From assembly GCA_041663005.1 (NCBI GenBank), contig JBAZRK010000001.1:93360-157359 (forward strand): a stretch of DNA of 64,000 nt. Direction: 5' to 3'. The notes under the pieces are model-generated. The model had not been told where the DNA came from and did not search any database. It saw only the letters and a list, made by a program, of their open reading frames with translations. The position numbers were made by a program, and so were the translations under genes. Positions 2,366-39,471 of this stretch are shown here, piece by piece. The DNA is from Minisyncoccota bacterium (GTDB lineage: Bacteria > Patescibacteriota > Minisyncoccia > Phycocordibacterales > UBA9973). Numbering within the stretch: position 1 is the stretch's first letter; each line of letters opens with the position of its first letter.

Positions 2366-5200
2366 ATGAAAGAATATGAGCACTTAAAGCTGGAAAAAAA
2401 GTGGCAGAATGAATGGGAGAAAAAGAGGATTTACCACGCTCAAAACAAATCTAAAAAACCAAAGTATTACAGTTTGATTGAATTTCCGTATCCCTCAGGC
2501 GATGGTCTCCATGTCGGGCATCCTCGCCCATACATAGGAATGGATGTGATTTCTAGGAAACGCCGATTAGAAGGCTATAATGTTTTATACCCAATAGGCT
2601 GGGATGCGTTTGGTTTGCCGACGGAAAACTTTGCCATAAAAACAGGGAAAGATCCGCGAATAGTTACTAAGAAAAATAGTGAAAATTTCAAACGCCAAAT
2701 AAAATCTCTTGGGATTTCTTTTGATTGGTCTAGGGAAATAAATACCACCGATCCGAAATATTATAAATGGACGCAGTGGATATTTTTACAATTTTTGAAA
2801 AAAGGTTTAGCCTACAAGGCGAAGATTGCGATAAATTGGTGCCCGAAAGATAAAATTGGTTTAGCCAATGAAGAAGTCGTCGGAGGAAATTGCGAACGAT
2901 GCGGAACGCCCGTTGAAAAAAGAGAGAAAGAGCAATGGATGCTTGCTATTACAAAATACGCAGAGCGCCTAGATAAAGATTTAGATGATGTGGATTATTT
3001 ACCACAAATAAAATTAGCCCAAAGAAACTGGATAGGTAAATCCGAAGGGGCAGAGATTGATTTTCCAGTTGCACATCCGAGGGTCAAAAGATTCGTTATT
3101 CTGCACGGCAGGTCCAGTAGGCCCGGCGACAATTCATATCCATGGCTAAAAAAGGAATTAGAATCACGGGGATATAAAGTCGAAGTACCTGAAATGCCTA
3201 ATTCGGGGGAACCGAACGATTTAGAGCAAGCGGATTTTGTAAAGAAACATTGCCAATTAGACGAGGGTACAGTTGTGGTGGGACACTCTATGGGAGGCAT
3301 TGTTGCACTTAGACTGCTTGAACAAGGTGCCAAAGTTCACGGAGTAGTCTTGGTGGCTACTCCTTCAACAGGGTTATTCTTAGACAAAAAACCTAGACCC
3401 ACAGTTACCCAAGCTGCGCAAAGAGGATTTAAATATGGGGAAATAAAACAGAACGCAGACTATTTTAGACTTTTGTATGATTCAGGCGATACCGTTGTTC
3501 CTGCCTCTGACGGCGAATTGTTTGCAAAAAAATTAAATTCCTATTGTCAATTTTCAACTGGAGAAAAACCTCATTTTCAGGGCAAAGAAGAACCAGCCAT
3601 TTTAGATTTACTGTTGCCGCATATTAAAGTTTTCACAACTCGACCTGATACTATTTTCGGAGCGACGTTTTTAGCGATTGCACCGGAGCTTGCTAAAAAA
3701 TTGACTGGTAAAAATTTCGGTATTAAAGTTGACACGGAAAGGGAGAACAGGGAAAAGCTGGGTGCAGATACCGGACTTAAAGCAAAAAATCCTGCAACCG
3801 GTCAAGAAATTCCAGTTTGGGTAGTTAATTATGTGTCGGCAGATTATGGCACGGGGGCAATTATGGGTGTGCCTGCTGATGACGAGCGAGACAACGAATT
3901 TGCAAAGAAGTTTAATTTGCCAATAGTTGAGAATTATAAAAAGGCAGGATTTGAAGATTTCGGGAAAAGGATTACAAAGTTTAAGCTTCGCGATTGGGTG
4001 TTTTCTCGCCAGCGATATTGGGGAGAGCCGATACCCGTGATTCTTTGTGAGAAATGTGGCATTGTTCCTGTTCCAGAGCGTGATTTACCGGTAGAACTTC
4101 CTAAAGTTAAAAATTACCAGCCGACGGATAGCGGGGAAAGCCCTCTTGCTAATATTTCCAAATGGGTAAATACCAAATGTCCAAAATGCAAAGGTACAGC
4201 AAAAAGAGAAACAGACACTATGCCAAACTGGGCTGGCTCTAGCTGGTATTACCTCCGTTATACAGACCCGAAGAATGCAAAAGCTTTTGCCGATAAAAAG
4301 GCATTAAAATATTGGACACCGGTGGACTGGTACAACGGCGGGAATGAGCATACCACTCTTCACTTACTATATTCGCGTTTTTGGCATAAATTTTTGTATG
4401 ATTTAAAACTAGTGCCGACACCAGAACCCTATAAAAAACGCACTTCGCACGGTATGATCTTGGGCGAAGGGGGAGTAAAGATGTCTAAATCTTTAGGCAA
4501 CGTCATAAATCCAGACGAAATTGTGAAAACTTATGGAGCGGATACTTTGCGAGTCTATGAGATGTTTATGGGGCCTTTTAATCAGTCCGTGGCTTGGTCT
4601 ACGGAAAGTATTATCGGAGCGAGGAGATTTATTGAAAAAGTTTGGAGGATAGGGGAGAAAGTTGCCTCGCCTAACGCTTCTGCTCAGGACTTCCTGCAGA
4701 GCAACGTCAGCCATTCGCAAAAGCATTTAGGCTCGAATTCTTCTTTACCAAAACTTCTGAACAAGACAATTAAAAAAGTTTCCGAAGATATTGAAACGAT
4801 GAGTTTCAATACAGCAATATCTTCTCTGATGATTTTAGCGACAGAGATGGAGAAAGCTCCAAGCATTTCAAAAGATGATTATAAAAAATTCTTACAGATA
4901 CTTTCTCCATTCGCTCCCCACATTGCCGAAGAGGTGTGGGCATCTTTAGCTGAGAAAAAGTCTATCAACCTTTCCGTGTGGCCGGAATGGGACGAAGCCT
5001 TGGTAAAAGACGATGAGATAAAAATTGCAGTCCAAATAAACGGCAAAGTGAGGGCCGAGATAATGATAGAAATACAAGACAACGAAGAAAAAATCAAAAA
5101 ACAGGCCTTGGGAGACCCTGCAGTTTTAAGGCACGTAGCCGGTCAGGAAGTTAGAAAAATAATTTATGTCAAAAACCGCCTTATTAACATTGTTTTATAA
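2366..5200 (+). CDS. leuS: leucyl-tRNA synthetase carrying an inserted alpha/beta-hydrolase domain
   Basis: Contains the HIGH motif (HVGHP), NWIGKSEG, the editing-domain motifs TTRPDT and GTGAIMGVPADDERD, and KMSKS. Between EIDF and TTRPDT lies a roughly 185-aa segment with HG...GHSMGG (GxSxG nucleophile elbow) that looks foreign to LeuRS. Confidence 0.9.
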   Translation: MKEYEHLKLEKKWQNEWEKKRIYHAQNKSKKPKYYSLIEFPYPSGDGLHVGHPRPYIGMDVISRKRRLEGYNVLYPIGWDAFGLPTENFAIKTGKDPRIVTKKNSENFKRQIKSLGISFDWSREINTTDPKYYKWTQWIFLQFLKKGLAYKAKIAINWCPKDKIGLANEEVVGGNCERCGTPVEKREKEQWMLAITKYAERLDKDLDDVDYLPQIKLAQRNWIGKSEGAEIDFPVAHPRVKRFVILHGRSSRPGDNSYPWLKKELESRGYKVEVPEMPNSGEPNDLEQADFVKKHCQLDEGTVVVGHSMGGIVALRLLEQGAKVHGVVLVATPSTGLFLDKKPRPTVTQAAQRGFKYGEIKQNADYFRLLYDSGDTVVPASDGELFAKKLNSYCQFSTGEKPHFQGKEEPAILDLLLPHIKVFTTRPDTIFGATFLAIAPELAKKLTGKNFGIKVDTERENREKLGADTGLKAKNPATGQEIPVWVVNYVSADYGTGAIMGVPADDERDNEFAKKFNLPIVENYKKAGFEDFGKRITKFKLRDWVFSRQRYWGEPIPVILCEKCGIVPVPERDLPVELPKVKNYQPTDSGESPLANISKWVNTKCPKCKGTAKRETDTMPNWAGSSWYYLRYTDPKNAKAFADKKALKYWTPVDWYNGGNEHTTLHLLYSRFWHKFLYDLKLVPTPEPYKKRTSHGMILGEGGVKMSKSLGNVINPDEIVKTYGADTLRVYEMFMGPFNQSVAWSTESIIGARRFIEKVWRIGEKVASPNASAQDFLQSNVSHSQKHLGSNSSLPKLLNKTIKKVSEDIETMSFNTAISSLMILATEMEKAPSISKDDYKKFLQILSPFAPHIAEEVWASLAEKKSINLSVWPEWDEALVKDDEIKIAVQINGKVRAEIMIEIQDNEEKIKKQALGDPAVLRHVAGQEVRKIIYVKNRLINIVL

Positions 5201-5226: not shown

Positions 5227-7212
5227 ATGCGTACAAACACATTCGACAAGCTTTCTTTATTATCATTATTTTTTGTAGCGGTTTTGCTCCCTATTTTCTG
5301 TTTACCCTTCACTAGTGTCTCGACAGAAATCTCTAAAGGTCTTCTTCTGGTGGTTGGGCTTACGATAAGTGTAGTTTTGTGGGCCGTGGGTAGATTTTTT
5401 GACGGCAAAATCACGATTCCTAAATCTTGGCTCTTAGCTACTGGGGGAGTCATAGTTTTAATAACACTTATCTCGGCCTTGTTCTCTCAGGCGCCAAAGG
5501 CCTCTCTTTTTGGTGTAATGTTTGACCTGCAAAGCTTCTTTATGATTTTGGCGGGATTTGTTTTGATGTTTATGTTCTCGGTTTTTTTCCGCACCCAGAA
5601 ACATGCCCGGATGCTTTTATTCGGCATAATCTTATCTTCGGCAATTGTTTTAATATTCCAGAGTGCGCGTTTGTTTATGCCTGGTATTTTATCTCTTGGA
5701 ATTTTCAGTGTCACGGACAAAACTGCTAATGTTATTGGCACCTGGAACAGCTTAGGCCTTTTCGCTGGATTTTCCGCGCTGATGTTCCTTTTAGTTATTG
5801 AATTTTTTTCAATTTCAAAATTGACCAAAATATTACTGCAGGTCTTTATACTGCTTGCGGTGTTGCTTGCTGCTGCAGTTAACTTTACACTTGTCTGGAT
5901 GTTGCTCGGACTATCGAGTTTGATTATCTTCGTATATAAAGCTTCCGCATCATTCCAACGTAAACCGGAAGAAGAAACGACACAGAAGCATTTCCCAGTT
6001 GTCGCATTTGTGGTTGTTATGGTTTCCCTTGTTTTTCTTACCGCAGGACCAGCATTTCGGGCTTACGCACCTGAGAAACTAAAAATAACAAATAATATCG
6101 AAGTTGGACCCTCACTCTCAGCTACTTTAGCAGTAGGAAAGAACGTTATTGTTCGAGATCCGATTTTAGGTATTGGTCCAAATAAATTTAGTCAAGCTTG
6201 GTCTCAATATAAACCTCTTGAAGTTAATTCCACCGTTTTGTGGGACGTGCCATTCGACGCAGGTTCAGGATTATTGCCCACAATTTTCGCTACTAATGGT
6301 ATCTTAGGATTGCTACCGTGGCTTGCATTCTTGGGATTATTTCTGTTTGTGGGAGGAAAATCCGTATTCTCGAATATTAAGAACGGTGTTAATTGGGAGA
6401 TGATGGCATTTTTCGTGCTGTCTCTATATCTATTCATAACTTTGTTCTTGTATGCTACGGGGGTTGTTATGTTGCTTTTATTCCTAGCCTTCACTGGAGT
6501 ATTTGTCGGGCTTGCCACGGGGAGTAAAGATCAAGAAATTTCAATTTTATTCTTAAACGACCATCGCAAGAGTTTCTTTTCTATCCTCGCGCTTATTCTT
6601 GTTGTTATTGCTTCTATCGCGGGTACTTTCAGATATTTCGAACGCTTTGCCTCGGTGCCTGTTTTCAGGAGAGCACTTATGGCCACAGAGTTACCGGTAG
6701 CAGAAACTGCAATAAAGAAAGCCATCTCGATGAATTATAATGATTTATATTTGCGTTCTTACGCACAAGTTTATTTTGCAAAATTTAACTCAATATTAGG
6801 CTCGAAGAGTTCTCTGACTGACAAAGAGAAAGCAGACCTAGAAACAGCCTTACAGCAAGCAATAGGCGCCGCTCGGGAGGCAGTAGACTATAATCCTGGT
6901 GAATATCAGAACTATCGTTTACTCGGTTCCATATATGAGACTGCTGGCCTGGTTGGATATCCAGGAGCTTATGCCCAAGCTGTGGCTACTTACCAAACCG
7001 CATCAGAGTTGAATCCATTTAACCCAATCCTTAAGTTAGGACAATCACGTGCGTCATTGGCAGATGGGAAGAGGGAAGATGCTATCAAATATGCCGAAGA
7101 AGCTCTTACACTGGCGCCCTTAGACAAAGGAATTATAGATTATGTTAATTCTCTAAAAACAAAAACTTCCACCACCACTCCGCCACCCGTCACACCGGAA
7201 GCCAATAACTGA
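5227..7212 (+). CDS. O-antigen ligase / Wzy-like polytopic membrane protein with C-terminal TPR-like repeats and a Thr/Pro-rich tail
   Basis: At least 10 TM helices over about 440 aa. The C-terminal soluble region has TPR-like repeats (YRLLGSIYETAG..., AIKYAEEALTLAP). The protein ends in TTTPPPVTPEANN. Confidence 0.6.
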   Translation: MRTNTFDKLSLLSLFFVAVLLPIFCLPFTSVSTEISKGLLLVVGLTISVVLWAVGRFFDGKITIPKSWLLATGGVIVLITLISALFSQAPKASLFGVMFDLQSFFMILAGFVLMFMFSVFFRTQKHARMLLFGIILSSAIVLIFQSARLFMPGILSLGIFSVTDKTANVIGTWNSLGLFAGFSALMFLLVIEFFSISKLTKILLQVFILLAVLLAAAVNFTLVWMLLGLSSLIIFVYKASASFQRKPEEETTQKHFPVVAFVVVMVSLVFLTAGPAFRAYAPEKLKITNNIEVGPSLSATLAVGKNVIVRDPILGIGPNKFSQAWSQYKPLEVNSTVLWDVPFDAGSGLLPTIFATNGILGLLPWLAFLGLFLFVGGKSVFSNIKNGVNWEMMAFFVLSLYLFITLFLYATGVVMLLLFLAFTGVFVGLATGSKDQEISILFLNDHRKSFFSILALILVVIASIAGTFRYFERFASVPVFRRALMATELPVAETAIKKAISMNYNDLYLRSYAQVYFAKFNSILGSKSSLTDKEKADLETALQQAIGAAREAVDYNPGEYQNYRLLGSIYETAGLVGYPGAYAQAVATYQTASELNPFNPILKLGQSRASLADGKREDAIKYAEEALTLAPLDKGIIDYVNSLKTKTSTTTPPPVTPEANN

Positions 7213-23679: not shown

Positions 23680-24378
23680 TTATTTACTTATTCGACGAAC
23701 TTTTTCAAAAAGTAGCAGAATTAAAATAGTCGCTACCCAGAGAAACGCGAAAACTTTCATAAAATCATTGCCGCTGTTCCTTATTATAAAGAAATTAAAA
23801 GCGCTGTGCAAGGCGATGGCTACAATAAAACCTAAAATTGTCGAGAACGTCCTGGTTAACCTCCCTGAATGCATCGACATTCCTATCGCGATGCCCAAAC
23901 TTCCGCTCGCAACAGTGTGGAGGAGAGTAGAGCCTACGAACCTGAGCTGTCCAGTTAGAAGCGCAACAGTGGCGCCGGAAAGGGCGATAGGTTTTATTAA
24001 AAATAAAGTATTTTCCAGCGTAGCGAAGCCCAATGCCGCCGTAATCATGTATATCGGCCAGTCTATCGGATGGTCCGCGTTGTTGGTTCGGTAAAGCACA
24101 GCTAGGACCGCGAGGTATTTGAGAACTTCCTCCGCACTGGCCCAGAGCGCAAGCTTGCCCTCGTAGGAGCCGATGTGCGCATCAATAAATTTCTGTACCG
24201 GAAGAACTAGCACCACCGTAGCTATGCCCATAGCGAAAACAATAGCGAGTAGAACTGCGGGTTCCGGGTGCTCTTCGTCTTCTTTTAGCCAGAACCATAA
24301 CCAAAAGAGAGAGGGTATAAGCCCGCCGAAAACGAACGCAAGAGCGAAAATTTTTATATCTCCTCCTGGGATGGCCAT
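23680..24378 (-). CDS. PrsW-family intramembrane protease
   Basis: Motifs EEVLKY (EExxK), FATLEN and HSAFNF sit within a 5-6 TM scaffold. Confidence 0.6.
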   Translation of the reverse strand: MAIPGGDIKIFALAFVFGGLIPSLFWLWFWLKEDEEHPEPAVLLAIVFAMGIATVVLVLPVQKFIDAHIGSYEGKLALWASAEEVLKYLAVLAVLYRTNNADHPIDWPIYMITAALGFATLENTLFLIKPIALSGATVALLTGQLRFVGSTLLHTVASGSLGIAIGMSMHSGRLTRTFSTILGFIVAIALHSAFNFFIIRNSGNDFMKVFAFLWVATILILLLFEKVRRISK

Positions 24379-26537
24379 TTTTCTGTCATTAATAAAGTTC
24401 TATTGTGCATCGACCATATTTCTTCGGTAACAAAAGGCATAAAGGGATGCAGGGCTTTGAGTAGGGTGTTGAGTTGTGTCAGGAGCAGAGCTCGCGCCGA
24501 GTCGACGTTGGTATTATTTTTTTCACTTTCGATAATTTTCTTTTTAGAGCGTTCGATTATGATGTCGGCGAAGGTGTGCCAGAAATAATGATACAATTTT
24601 TCAGCGACGATGTAGAACTTGTATTCATCCATTTCATTTGTAATTTCGGCTATGAGGGCGCGCAACTCTTCATCGGATTTCTTATCATCTTCGTCATACT
24701 TAAGTTCTTTGGGATTTTCTGAAAGTGTGAAATCTTGGGTGTTATCGTAGACAAATCGCGCTGCGTTCCAGATTTTATTTGAAAACTTGCTATAAGCTTT
24801 AACTTTTTGAATATCAAATTTGCCGTCGGCACCCGGACCTATGCCTACAATCATAGACATCCGTAAAGCGTCCGCTCCGTGCTCCTTGATAACTTCTAGA
24901 GGGTCTACGCCGTTGTTGAGTGACTTACTAAATTTCTGACCCTTAGCATCACGCAATATGCCGTGGAGATATACTGTTTCAAAAGGTATAGTGCCTATCA
25001 AGTATTGTGACATCAGAATCATTCGCGCCACCCAGAAGAAAAGAATTTCGTAGCCGGGATTAATCACGTTAGTTGGATGAAAGTTTTTCAGGTCTTCGGT
25101 GTTTTCCGGCCATCCGAGTGTTGAGAAAGTCCATAATCCGGAAGAAAACCAGGTATCGAGAGTATCTTCGTCCTGCACCCACCCTGAGCCTTCTGGAGCC
25201 TTAATCCCGCAATAAATCTCTTCGTCCTTGTACCACACTGGTATTCTGTGTCCGTACCAAATTTGACGGGAAATGCACCAATCGCGCAGATTTTCTATCC
25301 AGTTGAAATACACCCGTTTGAAGTGGTCAGGAATTATCTTTATCTTTTTCTCACGAACCGGCTCCAGCATCAGTTCTTTCAGAGACTTGTTTCCCCGAGC
25401 CGGGATTTTTTTATTTACATCCACGAACCATTGGAGCATTATTTGCGGTTCGATAAGCCCACCAGTGCGTTCTGCGGTCGCCACTCTGTTTACGTAATTT
25501 TCATCAACCGAGACCAGAAGCCCTTTATCTTTCAATTTTTCAACAATTTTTTCTCTGGCGTCGGTGATTTTCATACCGACAAATTCTTGGGCAACAGGTA
25601 GAAGTTTACCGTACGGGTCTATTATTTGCTCCTTGTCCAGTTTATATTTTTCCGCTAGAGCGAAGTCTTCGTGTGAATGCCAGGGAGTTATTGTCATAAC
25701 TCCGGTGCCGAATTCCATATCAATCATCTCGTCTTTAATGACCGTAGCTTCTACCGGGCCATTAATCCACTCAAGAGATAGTTTCTGACCGTGAGTATAA
25801 TCTTGGTAGCGTTTGTCGTCCGGATGCATCACTACATACTTGTCGCCAAATTTTGTTTCTGGCCTGGCAGTCCCTATTTCAAAAGGTCCATATTTAAAAG
25901 TATAAAATTTCCCCTTTCTTTCTTCGTACACGAGCTCATCGTCGGAAATAACAGTTTGGCCCTTCGGATCCCAGTTGACGATGCGATGTCCGCGATAAAT
26001 CAGTCCGTCGTCATACATCTGCTTGAAGGCGGTGCGAACCGCAAAGTTGCGCTTCTCGTCGAAAGTGAAAGCTTCTCTGGACCAGTCGAGTGATGCGCCC
26101 ATTTTGCGAAGTTGGCTGACGATAGTTTTCCTGCTACCCTCGACAAATTCGTTGACGCGCTCCAAGAATTTTTCTCGGCCGATATCTTTTTTCTTGATGC
26201 CTTCCTTCTCAAGCATTTTTGTTACCTTTGAATCTGTGGCTATGGCGGCGTGATCCGTACCCGGAATCCATACTGTTTGTTTCCCTTGCATTCGCTGGTA
26301 CCGTATCATCGTGTCTTGCATTGAGTCCTCAAGTGTGTGACCCAAGTGTAAAACACCAGTTGCGTTGGGAGGTGGGAGAACAATAGAGAACCTTTTACCG
26401 AAATTAGCGTTGGTTTTAGAATTTTTTGCCCATTCGGGTCGTACTTCTGGCGCAAAAAAACCGCTCTCTTCCCAAAGCTTATAAATTCTGTCCTCGGTAT
26501 TTTGCGGGTCGTAGGGCTTTTTCAGACGGTCGTCCAT
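24354..26537 (-). CDS. valS: valyl-tRNA synthetase (compact form without a long C-terminal coiled coil)
   Basis: PPPNATGVLHLGH (HIGH), the editing-domain TARPETKFGD...HPDD and KFSKS (KMSKS). 727 aa, ending shortly after the anticodon-binding domain. Confidence 0.85.
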   Translation of the reverse strand: MDDRLKKPYDPQNTEDRIYKLWEESGFFAPEVRPEWAKNSKTNANFGKRFSIVLPPPNATGVLHLGHTLEDSMQDTMIRYQRMQGKQTVWIPGTDHAAIATDSKVTKMLEKEGIKKKDIGREKFLERVNEFVEGSRKTIVSQLRKMGASLDWSREAFTFDEKRNFAVRTAFKQMYDDGLIYRGHRIVNWDPKGQTVISDDELVYEERKGKFYTFKYGPFEIGTARPETKFGDKYVVMHPDDKRYQDYTHGQKLSLEWINGPVEATVIKDEMIDMEFGTGVMTITPWHSHEDFALAEKYKLDKEQIIDPYGKLLPVAQEFVGMKITDAREKIVEKLKDKGLLVSVDENYVNRVATAERTGGLIEPQIMLQWFVDVNKKIPARGNKSLKELMLEPVREKKIKIIPDHFKRVYFNWIENLRDWCISRQIWYGHRIPVWYKDEEIYCGIKAPEGSGWVQDEDTLDTWFSSGLWTFSTLGWPENTEDLKNFHPTNVINPGYEILFFWVARMILMSQYLIGTIPFETVYLHGILRDAKGQKFSKSLNNGVDPLEVIKEHGADALRMSMIVGIGPGADGKFDIQKVKAYSKFSNKIWNAARFVYDNTQDFTLSENPKELKYDEDDKKSDEELRALIAEITNEMDEYKFYIVAEKLYHYFWHTFADIIIERSKKKIIESEKNNTNVDSARALLLTQLNTLLKALHPFMPFVTEEIWSMHNRTLLMTEKWPSQEEI

Positions 26538-33805: not shown

Positions 33806-33877
33806 GGCCCTATCGTCTAACGGTTAGGACATCGGCTTTTCAAGCCGGTAATCCGGGTTCGATTCCCGGTAGGGTCA
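33806..33877 (+). tRNA. tRNA-Glu (anticodon TTC)
   Basis: Acceptor GGCCCTA/TAGGGTC, anticodon stem TCGGC/GCCGG with loop TTTTCAA, T-arm CCGGG-TTCGATT-CCCGG. Confidence 0.85.
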
Positions 33878-35528
33878 CAGACAAGGATTTTTTATCCTGA
33901 AATTCGTCATATAGCTTGTAAGGTATAGATAGTTTTGGTGTTCCATTAAGTAATTCAGTATATGTTGGCAACTCATCAAAAACCAACCCATAAAATGCTC
34001 TTAAAAGAGTAAGATTCTTTTGTTTTATAAGGTATTCTTCTGGGTGTGCCATTAAGTTTTTTACATATCCTACAAAAGAGTGGACATCGTTCTCCTGAAC
34101 CTCAATTCCGTTTCTTTGCTCTCTGGTTTCTTCTATGCGTTGATGAAGTTTATTAATCTCTTTTTCAAGTTCTGCTCGTATAATTTCATTTGTTGTAGAA
34201 GTAAACGCATTAATCTTTTGTGTTTTCTCAAAATCAAGTTCTGCTACAGTTGTTCCCACTTTAACAGAAAACTCACCAAGTTCTTTTTCTTTCTCTCTAA
34301 ATTTATTTATCAGTGTTGCTTCAAGGGCTTTCAAAAAGCTTTTGTCTACGTGCTTTAATTTTTCTATGCAGACAGCAAGACCATCTTCAAATTCTTTCTT
34401 TGAAACTCTATATTGCTTGTGATTCCTAGCACAATGATATGCTGGAAAACTCTTGCCAGATTTACCAGTAGATGCACTACCTAAAAATGGTTTTTGACAT
34501 TCAGGGCACAACACAACTTCTTTAAAAGGATATAGGGGATTATCTTTCATTCGTTTTAACTGATGTGGGTTATAATCTTTATGTATCAAAATAGTTCCAT
34601 CCTTTTTCTCTTCAATAAAAAAATTGCCTTTATTTGCTCTGTTGTATTCGTCTATGCTCACCAACCCCTTGTAGTTAGTCCTAATAGGCGTTTTTAGCCA
34701 CTTTTCAGTATTAATTCCTGCATAGATGGGTCTTTGTATTATTTTCTGTAATTGCTTCACTGTAAGCTTTACACCGCCTCTCGAACCCAATATTTTATCT
34801 TTTGACCTTGACCACCTGTTTTGTTTCTTCGAACGATATCCAATAGCATTTATGTGGTCAACAATCTGCTGGTCTGTGTAAATGCCCGAAGCTCTCATTT
34901 CAAACATAGTAATAAAAAAGTGGGCTCGTTTAGGGTCTGAAACTTGAATCATTTTTTTCTTACCCTCAACGTAAATTCTTTCATTTACGAAACCATCATT
35001 TTCTTGCCTAACTTTATACCCTTCTCTTACTAAAGTTGCTTCTGCTCCAATCATTCTAGTAAGAATTTGATTAACTTCAATTTTACCTTGTTGAGCCATA
35101 ACAAGTTCTGTAATTTCACTAGGGCGTGTGATACTCCAGTCATATTCGAGACCAAGGTGTTCAAGAGTATTTTTTGTGGGCTGTATGATACCGTTAGAAT
35201 CAATTAATTGAACACCGTAATCAGCTAGTCGCTTTTTTAGACTTTCATACCCAAGAGTTCCATTTCTTGTAAAACGGTCTATGGAACGAAATATAATAAC
35301 ATCAACTTTTTTGGGAGACTTTTTTATAAAAGAAATAATGTCTTCAATAACAGGTCTGTCGTCTTTTCTACCAGAAAGTTGTTCCTTGAATGTTTTTAAA
35401 ACATCGAGTTTAAATTTTTCAGCAACACCGAGACAGATTTTTTCTTGCACTTCAAGACTTTCACCTTCTTGGGCTTGCTTTGCGGAACTAACTCGGCAAT
35501 AAATAATACAATTCTTATTTTCTTTCAT
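33840..35528 (-). CDS. large serine recombinase (resolvase/invertase catalytic domain plus recombinase domain plus zinc-ribbon/coiled-coil)
   Basis: N-terminal CIIYCRVSSAKQ contains the catalytic Ser motif. DRFTRN is present. 562 aa with C-terminal CPEC...C...HC. The last 38 nt are antisense to the tRNA-Glu 3' half. Confidence 0.85.
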   Translation of the reverse strand: MKENKNCIIYCRVSSAKQAQEGESLEVQEKICLGVAEKFKLDVLKTFKEQLSGRKDDRPVIEDIISFIKKSPKKVDVIIFRSIDRFTRNGTLGYESLKKRLADYGVQLIDSNGIIQPTKNTLEHLGLEYDWSITRPSEITELVMAQQGKIEVNQILTRMIGAEATLVREGYKVRQENDGFVNERIYVEGKKKMIQVSDPKRAHFFITMFEMRASGIYTDQQIVDHINAIGYRSKKQNRWSRSKDKILGSRGGVKLTVKQLQKIIQRPIYAGINTEKWLKTPIRTNYKGLVSIDEYNRANKGNFFIEEKKDGTILIHKDYNPHQLKRMKDNPLYPFKEVVLCPECQKPFLGSASTGKSGKSFPAYHCARNHKQYRVSKKEFEDGLAVCIEKLKHVDKSFLKALEATLINKFREKEKELGEFSVKVGTTVAELDFEKTQKINAFTSTTNEIIRAELEKEINKLHQRIEETREQRNGIEVQENDVHSFVGYVKNLMAHPEEYLIKQKNLTLLRAFYGLVFDELPTYTELLNGTPKLSIPYKLYDEFQDKKSLSVTLPGIEPGLPA

Positions 35529-37869: not shown

Positions 37870-39471
37870 ATGTTTAAAAACGAGAAAGGAGAAACAACTC
37901 TTCATATTGATACAAGGCTTGGAGAACTTACCACAGGTGAACCAAACGTGAACGAAGAAAAACTCAAGCAAGCTTTAAAGGCATACAATTTAAAAGAAGC
38001 CCTTTTAACTTTGTCTGAACTATCAAAAAACATTTTCAACGAAAACATTCCTGAACCATTTCAAAAGATGGGGAAAACTGGGATGCGTCATCCCGCAGGT
38101 TTAATTATTGCACAATTTGCTATTGAATATTTAGCTAGTGTTTTTATTATTTCAGGAGCTAACGATTATAAAAAAGAGAGCGTAAAAACAAAAGACAACA
38201 TATTGGGTCTTTTTAATATATATAATAATTCTCTTATACAACCTGTTTTTTTAGGCAATCATTTATCAACTTTACTTATACCGATGTATTTTGTTCAACT
38301 TAGAAGCCAATTTAGCCCCCAAGACCTTTTCACTAGGCAATGGATGATTTTTAGTGAAATGAGAAAAAAGACTAATAATATTTTTGAAGATATAAACAAA
38401 ATTATTTTTGACAACACAAATCTTACCATTGAAGAAATATCAGGGATTTCTTTTTCAATTTTTGCTTACTTAATACAAAATCCACTATTTAATATAGGAA
38501 ACTTAGAAGGACATACGGTTGAAAGCTTTAAAAATCTTTTAACTAAAGAAAAAATTGATTCATTTTTAAACTTATATACAGCTACTTATTCACAAATTCG
38601 TGAGTTAGACCAAAAGTTAAATCCGATAGACCTTAAAGAATATACAAAAGCCCGATTTAACCCCTTATGGAAAAAGCCAATAATAAAATTAGATGAAAAT
38701 TTATTTTTAGCACCTAGTTTAACAGCTTACACAACCGCAAGCTTTTATGGATTATTCTGGTGGTTTGACGATTACTATCGAGAGCAATCACAGAAGAAGC
38801 AAATGGATTTTAGGAAATATTTTGGAATTTTATTTGAAAATTACGCTGGAGAAGTTCTTTCAGATTTGTATGGAGAAAGTTCACTCAGAAAACAAATAAA
38901 GTATGGATTAAAGGGTAAAAAAATTGATTTTACAGATTGGGTAGTAATTAAAAACGATAAAGCGTATCTTTTTGAAGTTAAGGCATATCAATTTCCTCTA
39001 GAGGTTCTTCAAAAAGGAAAATCTGATGATGTTAGGAAACAGGTAATAAAAAAAATTGTTGAATCAATAAAACAGATATATCAAAGGTCTCAAGACATAC
39101 CTAAGCACAAGGAACTATCAGAGTTCAATAAAAAAGTAATAATCCCAATTGTGGTTTTTTATGATTTGCCTTTTATCTCTACTTCTCCTTCTTTGTATAA
39201 AGACGATATACTCAAAGCTCTTAACGGTTTAGATTCTAAATATAATGGGATTAAAGATTTTAAATATTACCTAATGAATATTGATGAATTGGAAGATTTT
39301 TATTATTGCTCTGATAATATTGAGATAGAGGATATCTTTGAGAATATTAAAGATAACCCAGCCAAAGGGGTTAATTCTGAAATTATTATCCATATAAAAG
39401 ACAAGAGTCGAAAGAATTTTCTCGATAGACAATTTAATAAATATTTAGATGACTTAGTGCCTGAATTATAA
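37870..39471 (+). CDS. hypothetical protein with a C-terminal PD-(D/E)xK-like nuclease motif (operon gene A)
   Basis: 533 aa. KKIDFTDWVVIKNDKAYLFEVKAY matches a D...(D/E)xK arrangement. No other domain recognised. Confidence 0.55.
   Translation: MFKNEKGETTLHIDTRLGELTTGEPNVNEEKLKQALKAYNLKEALLTLSELSKNIFNENIPEPFQKMGKTGMRHPAGLIIAQFAIEYLASVFIISGANDYKKESVKTKDNILGLFNIYNNSLIQPVFLGNHLSTLLIPMYFVQLRSQFSPQDLFTRQWMIFSEMRKKTNNIFEDINKIIFDNTNLTIEEISGISFSIFAYLIQNPLFNIGNLEGHTVESFKNLLTKEKIDSFLNLYTATYSQIRELDQKLNPIDLKEYTKARFNPLWKKPIIKLDENLFLAPSLTAYTTASFYGLFWWFDDYYREQSQKKQMDFRKYFGILFENYAGEVLSDLYGESSLRKQIKYGLKGKKIDFTDWVVIKNDKAYLFEVKAYQFPLEVLQKGKSDDVRKQVIKKIVESIKQIYQRSQDIPKHKELSEFNKKVIIPIVVFYDLPFISTSPSLYKDDILKALNGLDSKYNGIKDFKYYLMNIDELEDFYYCSDNIEIEDIFENIKDNPAKGVNSEIIIHIKDKSRKNFLDRQFNKYLDDLVPEL

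What the first reader, a model, noticed from the sequence alone, without database searches (positions are those of the whole stretch)
3071..3620. alpha/beta-hydrolase (GxSxG) domain inserted into leucyl-tRNA synthetase just before the editing-domain TTRPDT motif
In the bacterial LeuRS sequences I recall (e.g. E. coli), NWIG(R/K)SEG(x)EI(T/D)F is followed within about 20 residues by TTRPDT. Here about 185 residues intervene: HPRVKRFVILHGRSS...GTVVVGHSMGGIVAL...DSGDTVVP...KPHF. That is a recognisable Ser-Asp-His hydrolase of the RBBP9/YdeN type (HG oxyanion, GHSMG elbow). The downstream editing motifs (TTRPDT, GTGAIMGVPADDERD) are kept but the CP1 region is compact. A hydrolase fused at the editing site could be an alternative or auxiliary deacylase, or a moonlighting domain.
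Basis: partly seen in the sequence, partly recalled or inferred. Interest (0 to 1): 0.7.

Follow-up and report, generated by a model that had tools for sequence, protein, structure and literature searches.

The report
Serine hydrolase nested inside leucyl-tRNA synthetase
A complete, apparently active serine hydrolase of the YdeN/RBBP9 type sits inside the proofreading domain of this bacterium's leucyl-tRNA synthetase; the same nesting recurs across many ultra-small (Patescibacteria) bacteria and does not seem to have been described, but what the extra enzyme does is still unknown.

Summary
The 944-aa LeuRS (window 2366-5200, +) carries a 184-residue insert (aa 236-419, nt 3071-3622). It replaces the turn of the first β-hairpin of the CP1 editing domain, four residues before TTRPDT. 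The insert is a full PF06821 (YdeN/RBBP9) α/β-hydrolase. Its AF2 model has pLDDT 96.5 and TM 0.84 to RBBP9 and YdeN, with the triad Ser308-Asp375-His403.

It is not an artefact. The frame is continuous and composition is normal. At least 61 LeuRS sequences or cluster representatives and 22 species genomes of Patescibacteria carry the same domain. Ser and His are invariant (61/61).

LeuRS catalytic and CP1 editing motifs stay intact with or without the insert, so it does not replace editing. The domain behaves as a cassette:
- Insert identity is uncorrelated with host identity (r = 0.10).
- The gene is a mosaic.
- The domain occupies three different LeuRS sites.
- It is also nested in ValRS, AlaRS, PheRS-β, Fmt, TsaD, UvrB, SecA and EngA.

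Related LeuRS carry NUDIX, Ham1 or an inverted-repeat-bounded DUF559 endonuclease at the same hot spots.

Best reading: an autonomous α-aminoacyl-type hydrolase carried by LeuRS. A cis-acting second deacylase is possible but less supported. This is a new variant of a known kind.

The parts
2366..5200 (+). Host gene: bacterial-type leucyl-tRNA synthetase, 944 aa, with HVGH (aa 49-52) and KMSKS (aa 705-709)
   Evidence: phmmer E=3e-191 to T. thermophilus LeuRS. Pfam tRNA-synt_1, tRNA-synt_1_2 and Anticodon_1.
3050..3070 (+). First strand of the CP1 β-hairpin (AEIDFPV, aa 229-235), immediately upstream of the insert
   Evidence: (strand E229-236 in the full-length model).
3071..3622 (+). Nested YdeN/RBBP9-type (PF06821) α/β serine hydrolase domain, aa 236-419. 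It replaces the 3-6-residue hairpin turn of insert-less relatives.
   Evidence: Pfam. (gap in the LeuRS alignment). (AF2 pLDDT 96.5). (RBBP9 and YdeN, TM 0.84). (YdeN E=4e-33)..
3104..3109 (+). His247-Gly248, the HG oxyanion-hole motif of the hydrolase
   Evidence: (His present in all 56 LeuRS-embedded copies that cover the column).
3287..3289 (+). Ser308, nucleophile in the GHSMGG elbow
   Evidence: invariant. (61/61 LeuRS-embedded copies)..
3377..3397 (+). Lid motif F-x-D-x3-R (FLDKKPR, aa 338-344). It is conserved in LeuRS-embedded copies but not in free-standing homologues. Its Asp aligns within two positions of the RBBP9 α-amine anchor Glu108.
   Evidence: D 43/61, R 48/61 in LeuRS copies. 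(F and R are LeuRS-specific). (profile alignment to RBBP9). (role of Glu108).
3488..3490 (+). Asp375, the catalytic acid in DSGDTVVP
   Evidence: at least 90% conserved. (D or E in 57/61 LeuRS copies)..
3572..3574 (+). His403, the catalytic base in KPHF
   Evidence: invariant. (61/61)..
3623..3652 (+). Return strand of the hairpin plus the CP1 T-rich editing peptide (IKVF-TTRPDT, aa 420-429)
   Evidence: (T424, T425, T429 invariant in 48 sequences).
3848..3892 (+). CP1 editing motif GTGAIMGVPADDERD (aa 495-509), which contains the two conserved Asp residues
   Evidence: (D506, D509 invariant).
3893..3997 (+). Shortened C-terminal part of CP1 up to KLRDW ('site B'). It is only 39 residues here. 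Relatives carry a NUDIX domain or, in one case, the hydrolase at this place.
4046..4189 (+). CxxC...CxxC zinc knuckle (C561, C564, C605, C608). The loop after the first CxxC is 'site C', where other LeuRS carry the same hydrolase.
   Evidence: Cys invariant..

Best explanation
The gene encodes a working housekeeping LeuRS whose CP1 editing domain carries a second, independent enzyme. This is a compact YdeN/RBBP9-family serine hydrolase (Ser308-Asp375-His403). It is spliced into the turn of the first CP1 β-hairpin through very short linkers of about 6 and 3 residues.

Shown:
- The domain is intact, and its catalytic residues are under purifying selection in all LeuRS-embedded copies.
- LeuRS synthetic and CP1 editing motifs are unchanged.
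- The hydrolase is dispensable for LeuRS as such, because sister enzymes lack it.
- Its history is decoupled from the host's.
- It can occupy three different LeuRS loops and loops of unrelated housekeeping proteins.

Inferred: it acts as a geometry-independent hydrolase on diffusible substrates. By analogy with RBBP9, these would be α-aminoacyl amides or esters with a free α-amine and a hydrophobic side chain, such as N-terminal residues of peptides or amino-acid esters. Released aminoacyl-tRNA in trans could be included. LeuRS serves mainly as a permissive, constitutively expressed carrier in a streamlined genome. The domain arrived and spread by recombination of domain cassettes at insertion hot spots at the margins of CP1.
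For: Identity and integrity of the domain:
- Pfam PF06821 above the gathering score.
- AF2 pLDDT 96.5.
- Top structural matches RBBP9 and YdeN, TM 0.84, rmsd 2.2 Å.
- Profile E=4e-33 to YdeN and 2e-26 to RBBP9.
- Ser 61/61, His 61/61 and acid 57/61 in LeuRS-embedded copies that are 30-71% identical.

Host is intact:
- HVGH, KMSKS, T424/T425/T429 and D506/D509 are invariant.
- CP1 motifs are the same in the 20 hydrolase-bearing and 100 hydrolase-free relatives.

Accessory and cassette-like behaviour:
- Only 20 of the 120 closest LeuRS carry it, scattered over the host tree.
- Insert and host identities are uncorrelated, r=0.10.
- The window gene is a mosaic. Its N-terminal part is 95% and its C-terminal part 85% identical to P0020, but its CP1 is only 59% identical to P0020 and 83-86% identical to P0015 and P0038. 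Its hydrolase is closest (71%) to a Doudnabacteria LeuRS whose body is 57-65% identical.

Geometry independence:
- The domain occupies LeuRS sites A, B and C.
- The same domain is nested in ValRS, AlaRS, PheRS-β, Fmt, TsaD, UvrB, SecA and EngA.
- It is fused end-to-end to adenylate kinase, peptidase S51 (two cases), GNAT, glyoxalase, Smr and Ham1.

Chemistry:
- RBBP9 needs a free α-amine and forms acyl-enzymes with Leu/Ile, Met, Phe, Tyr and Trp (PMC8866121).
- RBBP9 activates the valine ester valacyclovir (Shenoy 2020, cited in PMC7730578).

Permissive site: the hairpin turn varies from 11 to 46 residues in insert-less relatives.
Against: - No activity or substrate was tested. YdeN itself has no known function.
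- LeuRS is by far the commonest host: about 61 of the sequences examined, against one each for other nested hosts. It has been invaded at three sites.
- Five of the nine other nested hosts also act on tRNA or aminoacyl-tRNA.
- LeuRS-embedded copies share residues that are rare in free-standing homologues (Q51, V76, A77, F101, R107, D135, E172 of the domain).
- These three points suggest some functional coupling to aminoacyl-tRNA enzymes that a pure carrier model does not explain.
- The host bias is partly a query bias, because the search started from a LeuRS-embedded copy.
- The short linkers imply a fixed orientation on CP1, which would also suit a cis function.
Confidence: 0.5

Rival explanations
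1. Auxiliary cis-acting editing site. The hydrolase, rigidly mounted next to the T-rich editing peptide, receives the aminoacylated 3' end of tRNA-Leu. It hydrolyses mischarged species that the shortened CP1 handles poorly, which widens the proofreading spectrum.
For: - The insert lies four residues before TTRPDT, with short linkers.
- RBBP9-type enzymes cleave aminoacyl groups with a free α-amine, including Leu/Ile and Met, and a valine ester of a nucleoside analogue.
- An acidic lid residue lies near the position of the RBBP9 α-amine anchor.
- CP1 of this clade lacks about 60 residues compared with T. thermophilus.
- Other hosts include the editing synthetases ValRS, AlaRS and PheRS-β, the last between the B3_4 editing domain and B5.
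- LeuRS-embedded copies share specific conserved residues.
Against: - CP1 catalytic residues are fully conserved with or without the hydrolase.
- The same compact CP1 works without the insert in many sister LeuRS.
- The domain also occurs with the long CP1 form (P0010).
- Three different insertion sites in LeuRS and hosts with no tRNA substrate (UvrB, SecA, Adk) argue against a geometry-dependent mechanism.
- A broad deacylase next to the product exit would risk hydrolysing Leu-tRNA-Leu.
- The interdomain geometry could not be modelled (pTM 0.58).
Confidence: 0.2
2. Amino-acid supply module. The domain is an aminopeptidase that releases N-terminal hydrophobic residues from scavenged peptides. 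Its fusion to synthetases for hydrophobic amino acids links peptide breakdown to tRNA charging in an auxotrophic, host-dependent bacterium.
For: - RBBP9 is an aminopeptidase for hydrophobic and aromatic N-terminal residues.
- Homologues are fused to peptidase S51 in two independent clusters.
- The synthetase hosts found are LeuRS, ValRS, AlaRS and PheRS, all for hydrophobic amino acids.
- The pocket residues that align with RBBP9 Phe140 and Leu141 are Val-Val here (read from the sequence).
Against: - Free amino acids diffuse, so tethering gives little kinetic gain.
- The hosts Fmt, TsaD, EngA, UvrB and SecA do not fit.
- No peptide-transport or peptidase context was seen near the gene.
- Specificity is untested.
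Confidence: 0.15
3. Selfish or neutral passenger. The domain was delivered by mobile DNA into a loop that tolerates insertions. It persists only because precise excision is rare, and its catalysis is irrelevant to the cell.
For: - In related LeuRS the same loop holds an in-frame DUF559 endonuclease bounded by 31-nt inverted repeats, and in L046 the hydrolase is bracketed by two direct copies of that repeat.
- Distribution is patchy and the gene is a mosaic.
- Hosts are promiscuous.
Against: - The catalytic Ser and His are invariant in 61 embedded copies down to about 30% identity, and the fold is predicted with very high confidence. This indicates long-term purifying selection on catalysis.
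- The window copy has no repeats or compositional trace of recent arrival.
- The hydrolase has no nuclease or recombinase of its own.
Confidence: 0.1
4. Assembly chimera, frameshift or mis-called gene. The hydrolase would then be a separate gene joined to LeuRS by error.
For: NCBI names the product 'alpha/beta fold hydrolase', which might suggest a separate gene.
Against: - The frame is continuous, with LeuRS sequence on both sides and both hairpin strands preserved.
- Composition is normal.
- The same junctions occur in dozens of independent assemblies and in 22 species genomes.
Confidence: 0.01

Closest known systems
YdeN (B. subtilis, PDB 1uxo) and human RBBP9 (2qs9, 7oex): Pfam PF06821 Ser_hydrolase / DUF1234
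   Same: Same minimal α/β-hydrolase fold of about 185 residues (TM 0.84, rmsd 2.2 Å). Same order of nucleophile elbow, acid and His. Profile E=4e-33 to YdeN and 2e-26 to RBBP9. Shares the PWLKxELE motif with free-standing bacterial homologues.
   Different: Those proteins are free-standing; this one is nested inside another enzyme. Identity is only about 24-25%. It has HG where RBBP9 has PGNGG. The residues aligned with the RBBP9 cage (Tyr99, Phe140, Leu141) are Pro, Val and Val. LeuRS-embedded copies have their own conserved residues: EQ in place of the family's Trp, and a lid F-x-D-x3-R.
Canonical bacterial LeuRS with the CP1 editing domain (T. thermophilus 1h3n, E. coli 4aq7)
   Same: Same catalytic core, HIGH and KMSKS motifs, zinc knuckles, CP1 T-rich and DxxD motifs, anticodon-binding and C-terminal domains.
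   Different: It has an extra 184-residue enzyme in the first CP1 hairpin. CP1 is shortened by about 60 residues. The leucine-specific domain is absent.
Known aminoacyl-tRNA proofreading modules (CP1 of LeuRS/IleRS/ValRS, AlaX, YbaK/ProXp, DTD, PheRS B3_4)
   Same: Possibly the chemistry, that is hydrolysis of an aminoacyl ester with a free α-amine, and the location next to an editing domain.
   Different: None of these is an α/β-hydrolase with a Ser-Asp-His triad (own knowledge of these families). The fold search returned only α/β-hydrolases. No deacylase activity has been shown for PF06821.
Rickettsia palindromic elements and inteins (selfish DNA translated within essential proteins; own knowledge)
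   Same: In-frame insertions in surface loops of essential housekeeping proteins. Distribution is patchy. In relatives, repeat-bounded elements occupy the same loop.
   Different: The window insert has no terminal repeats and no Hint or intein domain. It is a conserved enzyme rather than a short palindromic peptide or a self-splicing element.
Other domain nestings found here in Patescibacteria LeuRS (NUDIX, Ham1-like, DUF559)
   Same: They use the same two or three permissive loops at the margins of CP1, have a patchy distribution and occur in combination with the hydrolase.
   Different: They belong to different enzyme families. In the 120 closest relatives, NUDIX is more frequent (43) than the hydrolase (20).

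Membership tests
Bacterial-type leucyl-tRNA synthetase (class Ia) | Full-length similarity to solved bacterial LeuRS | tested here: met
   E=3e-191 to 1h3n. Four collinear blocks cover Tt residues 1-241, 243-364, 410-580 and 637-875.
Bacterial-type leucyl-tRNA synthetase (class Ia) | HIGH and KMSKS signature motifs | tested here: met
   HVGH at aa 49-52 and KMSKS at aa 705-709. Both are invariant in 48 relatives.
Bacterial-type leucyl-tRNA synthetase (class Ia) | CP1 editing domain with the T-rich peptide and conserved Asp residues | tested here: met
   (PF13603, 6.9e-39), 27 and 69: TTRPDT and ADDERD are present and invariant.
Bacterial-type leucyl-tRNA synthetase (class Ia) | Leucine-specific domain next to KMSKS | tested here: not met
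   query 701-705 spans Tt 580-637, so the domain is deleted. This is a clade feature, not linked to the insert.
Bacterial-type leucyl-tRNA synthetase (class Ia) | Leucylation and editing activity | not testable with these tools
   Needs an enzyme assay.
PF06821 Ser_hydrolase (YdeN/RBBP9, DUF1234) | Pfam model score above the gathering threshold | tested here: met
   28.3 bits for the insert alone, with a cut-off of 22.
PF06821 Ser_hydrolase (YdeN/RBBP9, DUF1234) | Compact α/β-hydrolase fold that superposes on YdeN and RBBP9 | tested here: met
   pLDDT 96.5. The seven best PDB hits are RBBP9 and YdeN chains (TM 0.83-0.84). The next hits drop to E about 1e-7.
PF06821 Ser_hydrolase (YdeN/RBBP9, DUF1234) | Ser (GxSxG), Asp and His triad in the canonical order | tested here: met
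   Ser308, Asp375 and His403.
PF06821 Ser_hydrolase (YdeN/RBBP9, DUF1234) | RBBP9-like recognition of a free α-amine (Glu108) and a hydrophobic cage | tested here: inconclusive
   a conserved Asp lies two profile positions from Glu108. The cage residues differ. No residue-level structural superposition was available.
PF06821 Ser_hydrolase (YdeN/RBBP9, DUF1234) | Hydrolase activity | not testable with these tools
   Needs an assay on aminoacyl-AMC, amino-acid esters and aminoacyl-tRNA.
Aminoacyl-tRNA editing or trans-editing deacylases | Homology to a known editing fold (CP1, AlaX, YbaK, DTD, B3_4) | tested here: not met
   the insert matches only α/β-hydrolase families.
Aminoacyl-tRNA editing or trans-editing deacylases | Deacylation of mischarged tRNA | not testable with these tools
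   Needs a biochemical assay.
Intein or homing-endonuclease insertion | Hint splicing domain and a nucleophile at both junctions | tested here: not met
   no Hint, intein or LAGLIDADG hit. The junctions are ...FPV|AHPRV and ...LLPH|IKVF.
Inverted-repeat-bounded in-frame element (as in L046) | Terminal inverted or direct repeats flanking the insert | tested here: not met
   neither the peptide signature of the repeat nor significant border repeats occur in the window. They are present in the relative L046.

The most novel reading that the evidence does not exclude
The nested YdeN/RBBP9-type domain is a new kind of aminoacyl-tRNA proofreading module: an α/β-hydrolase with a Ser-Asp-His triad. 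It would deacylate mischarged or surplus aminoacyl-tRNA, in cis on LeuRS or in trans. It would have been recruited repeatedly to synthetases that edit (LeuRS at three sites, ValRS, AlaRS, PheRS-β) in Patescibacteria. This would also imply that the large, uncharacterised free-standing YdeN family has an aminoacyl-ester (tRNA) hydrolase function.
Probability: 0.2. Interest if true: 0.85.

Novelty: new variant of a known kind. Interest (0 to 1): 0.62.

Why it matters
Bacterial aminoacyl-tRNA synthetases are usually seen as architecturally conservative. An intact second enzyme nested in the moving editing domain of LeuRS is unexpected, especially one that recurs across many Patescibacteria lineages.

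It matters in three ways:
- It gives a concrete, testable candidate for the unknown function of the YdeN/RBBP9 family in bacteria, namely hydrolysis of α-aminoacyl esters or amides. It also allows a direct test of whether an α/β-hydrolase can proofread aminoacyl-tRNA.
- Together with the NUDIX, Ham1 and DUF559 nestings, it shows that the margins of CP1 are hot spots. Whole enzyme domains are shuffled there between alleles of an essential gene, which is a route to multifunctional proteins in streamlined genomes.
- It causes annotation errors. NCBI names this essential LeuRS 'alpha/beta fold hydrolase'. It also distorts LeuRS-based phylogenies, because the body, CP1 and insert have different histories.

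Tried and rejected
- The word-indexed search with the insert alone returned only seven free-standing hydrolases and missed every LeuRS-embedded copy, including the query itself. A whole-protein search and the exhaustive representative search were needed.
A narrower alignment, A3, worked.
- The AlphaFold-database fold library was not available.
- The full-length AF2 model gave pTM 0.58, with the host poorly resolved.
- The neighbour-joining tree of 180-column hydrolase domains split the LeuRS copies into 26 pure clades. This is too noisy to count capture events, partly because many short 'free' proteins may be gene fragments. The argument for independent insertions therefore rests on the three insertion sites and on P0029's distinct subtype.
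- A first repeat pattern was mistyped and found nothing. It was corrected.
- Five literature searches found no description of hydrolase or NUDIX nesting in LeuRS.
- Considered and rejected: an intein (no Hint domain), a frameshift or chimera, a variant of the normal CP1 or zinc domain, and compensation for a dead CP1 (its motifs are intact).
- The second class I synthetase in the window (ValRS, 24354-26537) was checked for a missing editing domain that the hydrolase might serve in trans. Its CP1 is intact.


Full report
THE OBSERVATION

The window holds one long ORF at 2366-5200 (+) that encodes a 944-aa protein. It aligns to T. thermophilus LeuRS (PDB 1h3n) with E=3e-191 in four collinear blocks. 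Query 1-240 matches Tt 1-241, and the alignment resumes at query 420 = Tt 243.

In the insert-less closest relatives, WIGxSEG and TTRPDT are 15-18 residues apart and form a β-hairpin (AEIxFxI - short turn - xIKVFTTRPDT). Here the distance is 195 residues, and the insert (aa 236-419, nt 3071-3622) replaces the turn.

The insert on its own passes the Pfam gathering scores of Abhydrolase_6, Abhydrolase_1, Abhydrolase_5 and Ser_hydrolase PF06821.

An artefact can be excluded:
- The frame is continuous.
- GC (0.423 against 0.408), GC3 and codon usage of the insert lie within the spread of equally long host segments.
- No repeats mark the borders.
- The identical protein (P0008) is on record from a 336-kb contig of a 'Candidatus Paceibacterota' MAG.
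- Many independent assemblies show the same junctions.

WHAT THE INSERT IS

An alignment of 17 LeuRS-embedded copies and 6 free-standing homologues shows these residues as invariant: the HG histidine, the PWLK...E motif, the nucleophile Ser, the following Gly and the catalytic His. The acid is more than 90% conserved.

With that alignment, AlphaFold2 gives a model with mean pLDDT 96.5 and pTM 0.93. Its seven best matches in the PDB are chains of human RBBP9 and B. subtilis YdeN (E about 1e-12 to 1e-13, TM 0.83-0.84, rmsd 2.2-2.3 Å over 180-186 columns). All other α/β-hydrolases follow six orders of magnitude behind. A sequence profile also finds YdeN (4e-33) and RBBP9 (2e-26) first.

In LeuRS numbering the triad is Ser308, Asp375 and His403, with His247-Gly248 as the oxyanion motif.

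THE HOST

HVGH, KMSKS, both CxxC pairs, the T-rich peptide (T424, T425, T429) and the two CP1 aspartates (D506, D509) are invariant in a 48-sequence alignment.

Compared with T. thermophilus, the enzyme lacks three things: about 15 residues between TTRPDT and GTG, about 45 residues at the C-terminal end of CP1, and the whole leucine-specific domain. Many relatives without the insert share these reductions.

Among the 120 closest LeuRS, the editing motifs are equally intact in the 20 that carry the hydrolase and the 100 that do not. So the hydrolase does not compensate for a dead CP1.

In the full-length model the hydrolase is the best-defined part (pLDDT 93-97). It is flanked by the two hairpin strands (E229-236 and E419-424), with linkers of roughly six and three residues. 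The host is poorly resolved (pTM 0.58), so no interdomain geometry can be trusted.

DISTRIBUTION

The whole-protein search and an alignment of the 120 best hits show that LeuRS of this group is extremely variable in length, from 735 to 1352 aa. The cause is whole domains nested at fixed loops.

Site A, the first CP1 hairpin, carries one of the following:
- the hydrolase alone;
- a DUF559/REase-like module;
- hydrolase plus DUF559;
- hydrolase plus a Ham1-like module.

Twenty of the 120 relatives carry the hydrolase at site A, alone or in one of these combinations.

Site B, between the DxxD motif and KLRDW, carries a NUDIX domain with an intact Nudix box in 43 of the 120.

The exhaustive search of 1.84 billion cluster representatives with the insert gave 1477 hits. 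About 45 of the best 150 are LeuRS with the order N-terminal part, hydrolase, CP1, C-terminal part. Host identity falls as low as 37-60%.

The hydrolase also occurs elsewhere in LeuRS. Five LeuRS carry it at a third place (site C), directly after the first CxxC of the zinc knuckle that follows CP1. One carries it inside site B.

A scan of one genome per species found 22 species genomes with the hydrolase inside LeuRS. Twenty-one have it ahead of the CP1 core; in L018 it follows CP1. They are named Doudnabacteria, Nomurabacteria, Kaiserbacteria, Kerfeldbacteria, Parcubacteria, Paceibacterota and others, plus a few probably mis-binned records. Free-standing homologues exist in the same superphylum, for example Uhrbacteria L023.

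Across 61 LeuRS-embedded copies, the Ser and the His are present in 61/61 and an acid (D or E) in 57/61. This holds although the domains are only 30-71% identical. Catalysis has therefore been under long-term selection.

THE DOMAIN BEHAVES AS A CASSETTE

Pairwise identity of inserts is uncorrelated with that of their hosts (r=0.10). For example:
- P0009: host 80%, insert 47%;
- P0118: host 60%, insert 71%.

The window gene itself is a mosaic:
- Its N-terminal part (95%) and C-terminal part (85%) are closest to P0020.
- P0020 has no hydrolase, carries NUDIX, and has a CP1 only 59% identical.
- The window's CP1 core is 83-86% identical to the compact CP1 of P0015 and P0038.
- Its hydrolase is closest to that of a Doudnabacteria LeuRS whose body is 57-65% identical.

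On a host tree the hydrolase-bearing sequences are scattered next to hydrolase-free sisters.

The same PF06821 domain is nested in ValRS, AlaRS, PheRS-β (between B3_4 and B5), Met-tRNA formyltransferase, TsaD, UvrB, SecA and EngA. It is fused end-to-end to adenylate kinase, peptidase S51 (twice), GNAT, glyoxalase, Smr, DUF1653 and Ham1.

A RELATED MOBILE-DNA OBSERVATION

In relatives, the DUF559 module at site A is flanked by odd peptides (…NPSPALPEGEGE… and …ALSFGEGLGGV…).

At the DNA level in L046 (the gene of P0037), a 31-nt GC-rich sequence, ACCCCTCCCCAGCCCTCCCCGAAGGAGAGGG, occurs three times:
- upstream of the hydrolase, at 878;
- between the hydrolase and DUF559, at 1460, as a direct copy (97% identical over 36 nt);
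- downstream of DUF559, at 1871, as an inverted copy (97% complementary).

All three copies are translated in frame. The endonuclease module thus looks like an inverted-repeat-bounded element living inside the LeuRS reading frame, and the hydrolase can be bracketed by the same repeat. That offers a route for cassette exchange. The window copy shows no trace of such repeats, so this is context and not part of the feature.

HOW IT MOST LIKELY WORKS

Shown:
- The hydrolase is intact, selected and probably active.
- LeuRS is intact, with an intact CP1.
- The domain is dispensable for LeuRS, has a history decoupled from its host, and is independent of position and host.

Known from the literature:
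- RBBP9, the only characterised close structural relative, is a serine aminopeptidase that needs a free α-amine.
- Its active-site trap captured Leu/Ile, Met, Phe, Tyr and Trp, and the authors considered amide, ester or thioester substrates (PMC8866121).
- RBBP9 was also identified as an enzyme that activates valacyclovir, the valine ester of a nucleoside analogue (Shenoy et al. 2020, cited in PMC7730578).

Inference: the nested domain hydrolyses α-aminoacyl amides or esters of hydrophobic amino acids. Because it functions at three LeuRS sites and in unrelated hosts, a mechanism that depends on precise geometry relative to the tRNA 3' end is less likely than action on diffusible substrates. 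LeuRS would then be a permissive and always-expressed carrier. I put this at about 0.5.

In its favour:
- the chemistry fits;
- the location is next to the T-rich peptide, with short linkers;
- LeuRS is the dominant host;
- four editing synthetases are among the hosts;
- LeuRS-embedded copies share conserved residues that are rare in free-standing homologues, such as the lid F-x-D-x3-R, whose Asp aligns two positions from the RBBP9 α-amine anchor Glu108.

A peptide-to-amino-acid supply role gets about 0.15. It is supported by the peptidase S51 fusions and by the hosts all being synthetases for hydrophobic amino acids. A neutral or selfish passenger gets about 0.1. It is disfavoured by the invariant triad. 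An artefact is excluded.

COMPARISON WITH WHAT IS KNOWN, AND NOVELTY

Both parts belong to known families, bacterial LeuRS and PF06821. What is new is the architecture: a second enzyme nested in the CP1 hairpin, and its recurrence.

Five full-text searches found no description of a hydrolase or NUDIX domain nested in LeuRS or in any Patescibacteria synthetase. A 2026 survey of domain insertions treats the LeuRS editing domain only as an insert, never as a host (PMC13114784). Databases hold the sequences but misname them: NCBI calls this one 'alpha/beta fold hydrolase'.

I rate it a new variant of a known kind, with interest about 0.6. It would surprise synthetase specialists and it opens a direct experiment. 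The function is unknown, however, and the evidence leans toward a passenger enzyme rather than a new proofreading mechanism.

Noticed in passing
Relatives P0020, P0010, P0083 and others (site B, corresponding to window 3893-3997): 43 of the 120 closest LeuRS carry a NUDIX domain of about 180 residues between the CP1 DxxD motif and KLRDW. The Nudix box is intact (GGVEEGEDx7REIKEETGY). The window protein has only 39 residues at this place. No publication on this was found.
   Followed up: partly
L046:878-1901 (gene of P0037); peptides seen in P0019, P0023, P0024, P0037, P0043, P0054, P0055, P0072, P0115: An in-frame DUF559/REase-like module in the same CP1 hairpin is bounded by 31-nt GC-rich inverted repeats (1460-1490 and 1871-1901, 97% complementary). 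A third, direct copy at 878 brackets the hydrolase. The repeats are translated as '...PSPALPEGEGE...' and '...SFGEGWGGV...'. Small copies of the repeat peptide are nested again inside the DUF559 module of P0054 and P0055. This looks like a mobile element living inside an essential reading frame.
   Followed up: partly
P0013 (site A, 408 residues) and P0219: One LeuRS carries the hydrolase followed by a Ham1/ITPase-like module in the same loop. A separate 413-aa protein is a Ham1 plus Ser_hydrolase fusion, so the pair may travel together.
   Followed up: no
P0179, P0162, P0269, P0216, P0204, P0205, P0144, P0238, P0187, P0208, P0267: The same PF06821 hydrolase is nested in ValRS, AlaRS, PheRS-β, Met-tRNA formyltransferase, TsaD, UvrB, SecA and EngA. 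It is fused end-to-end to adenylate kinase and, in two cases, to peptidase S51. The domain is therefore a promiscuous insert in housekeeping proteins.
   Followed up: partly
P0135, P0152, P0195, P0215, P0225 (corresponding to window about 4058): Five LeuRS carry the hydrolase at a third site, directly after the first CxxC of the zinc knuckle that follows CP1 (HCxxC-[hydrolase]-G(I/W)xPVP). P0268 carries it inside the C-terminal part of CP1.
   Followed up: partly
window 2366-5200: The LeuRS gene is a mosaic: its N- and C-terminal parts, its CP1 core and its hydrolase each have different closest relatives. It also lacks the leucine-specific domain and about 60 residues of CP1. This matters if LeuRS is used as a phylogenetic marker.
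   Followed up: yes
window 2366-5200 (database record P0008): NCBI names this essential LeuRS 'MAG: alpha/beta fold hydrolase', whereas JGI names it leucyl-tRNA synthetase. The nested domain misleads automatic naming.
   Followed up: no
window 24354-26537 (-): This ORF is a 726-aa ValRS that aligns continuously to T. thermophilus ValRS residues 14-707. Its editing domain is therefore intact, but the C-terminal coiled-coil tRNA-binding arm is missing.
   Followed up: partly
window 33840-35528 (-): A 561-aa protein with an N-terminal resolvase domain (a large serine recombinase). It is a possible sign of an integrated mobile element in the window.
   Followed up: no
window 5227-7212 (+) and 37870-39471 (+): Two large ORFs (661 and 533 aa) have no Pfam match at E<=1e-6. 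The first is a multi-pass membrane protein that ends in a TPR-like, Thr/Pro-rich tail.
   Followed up: no
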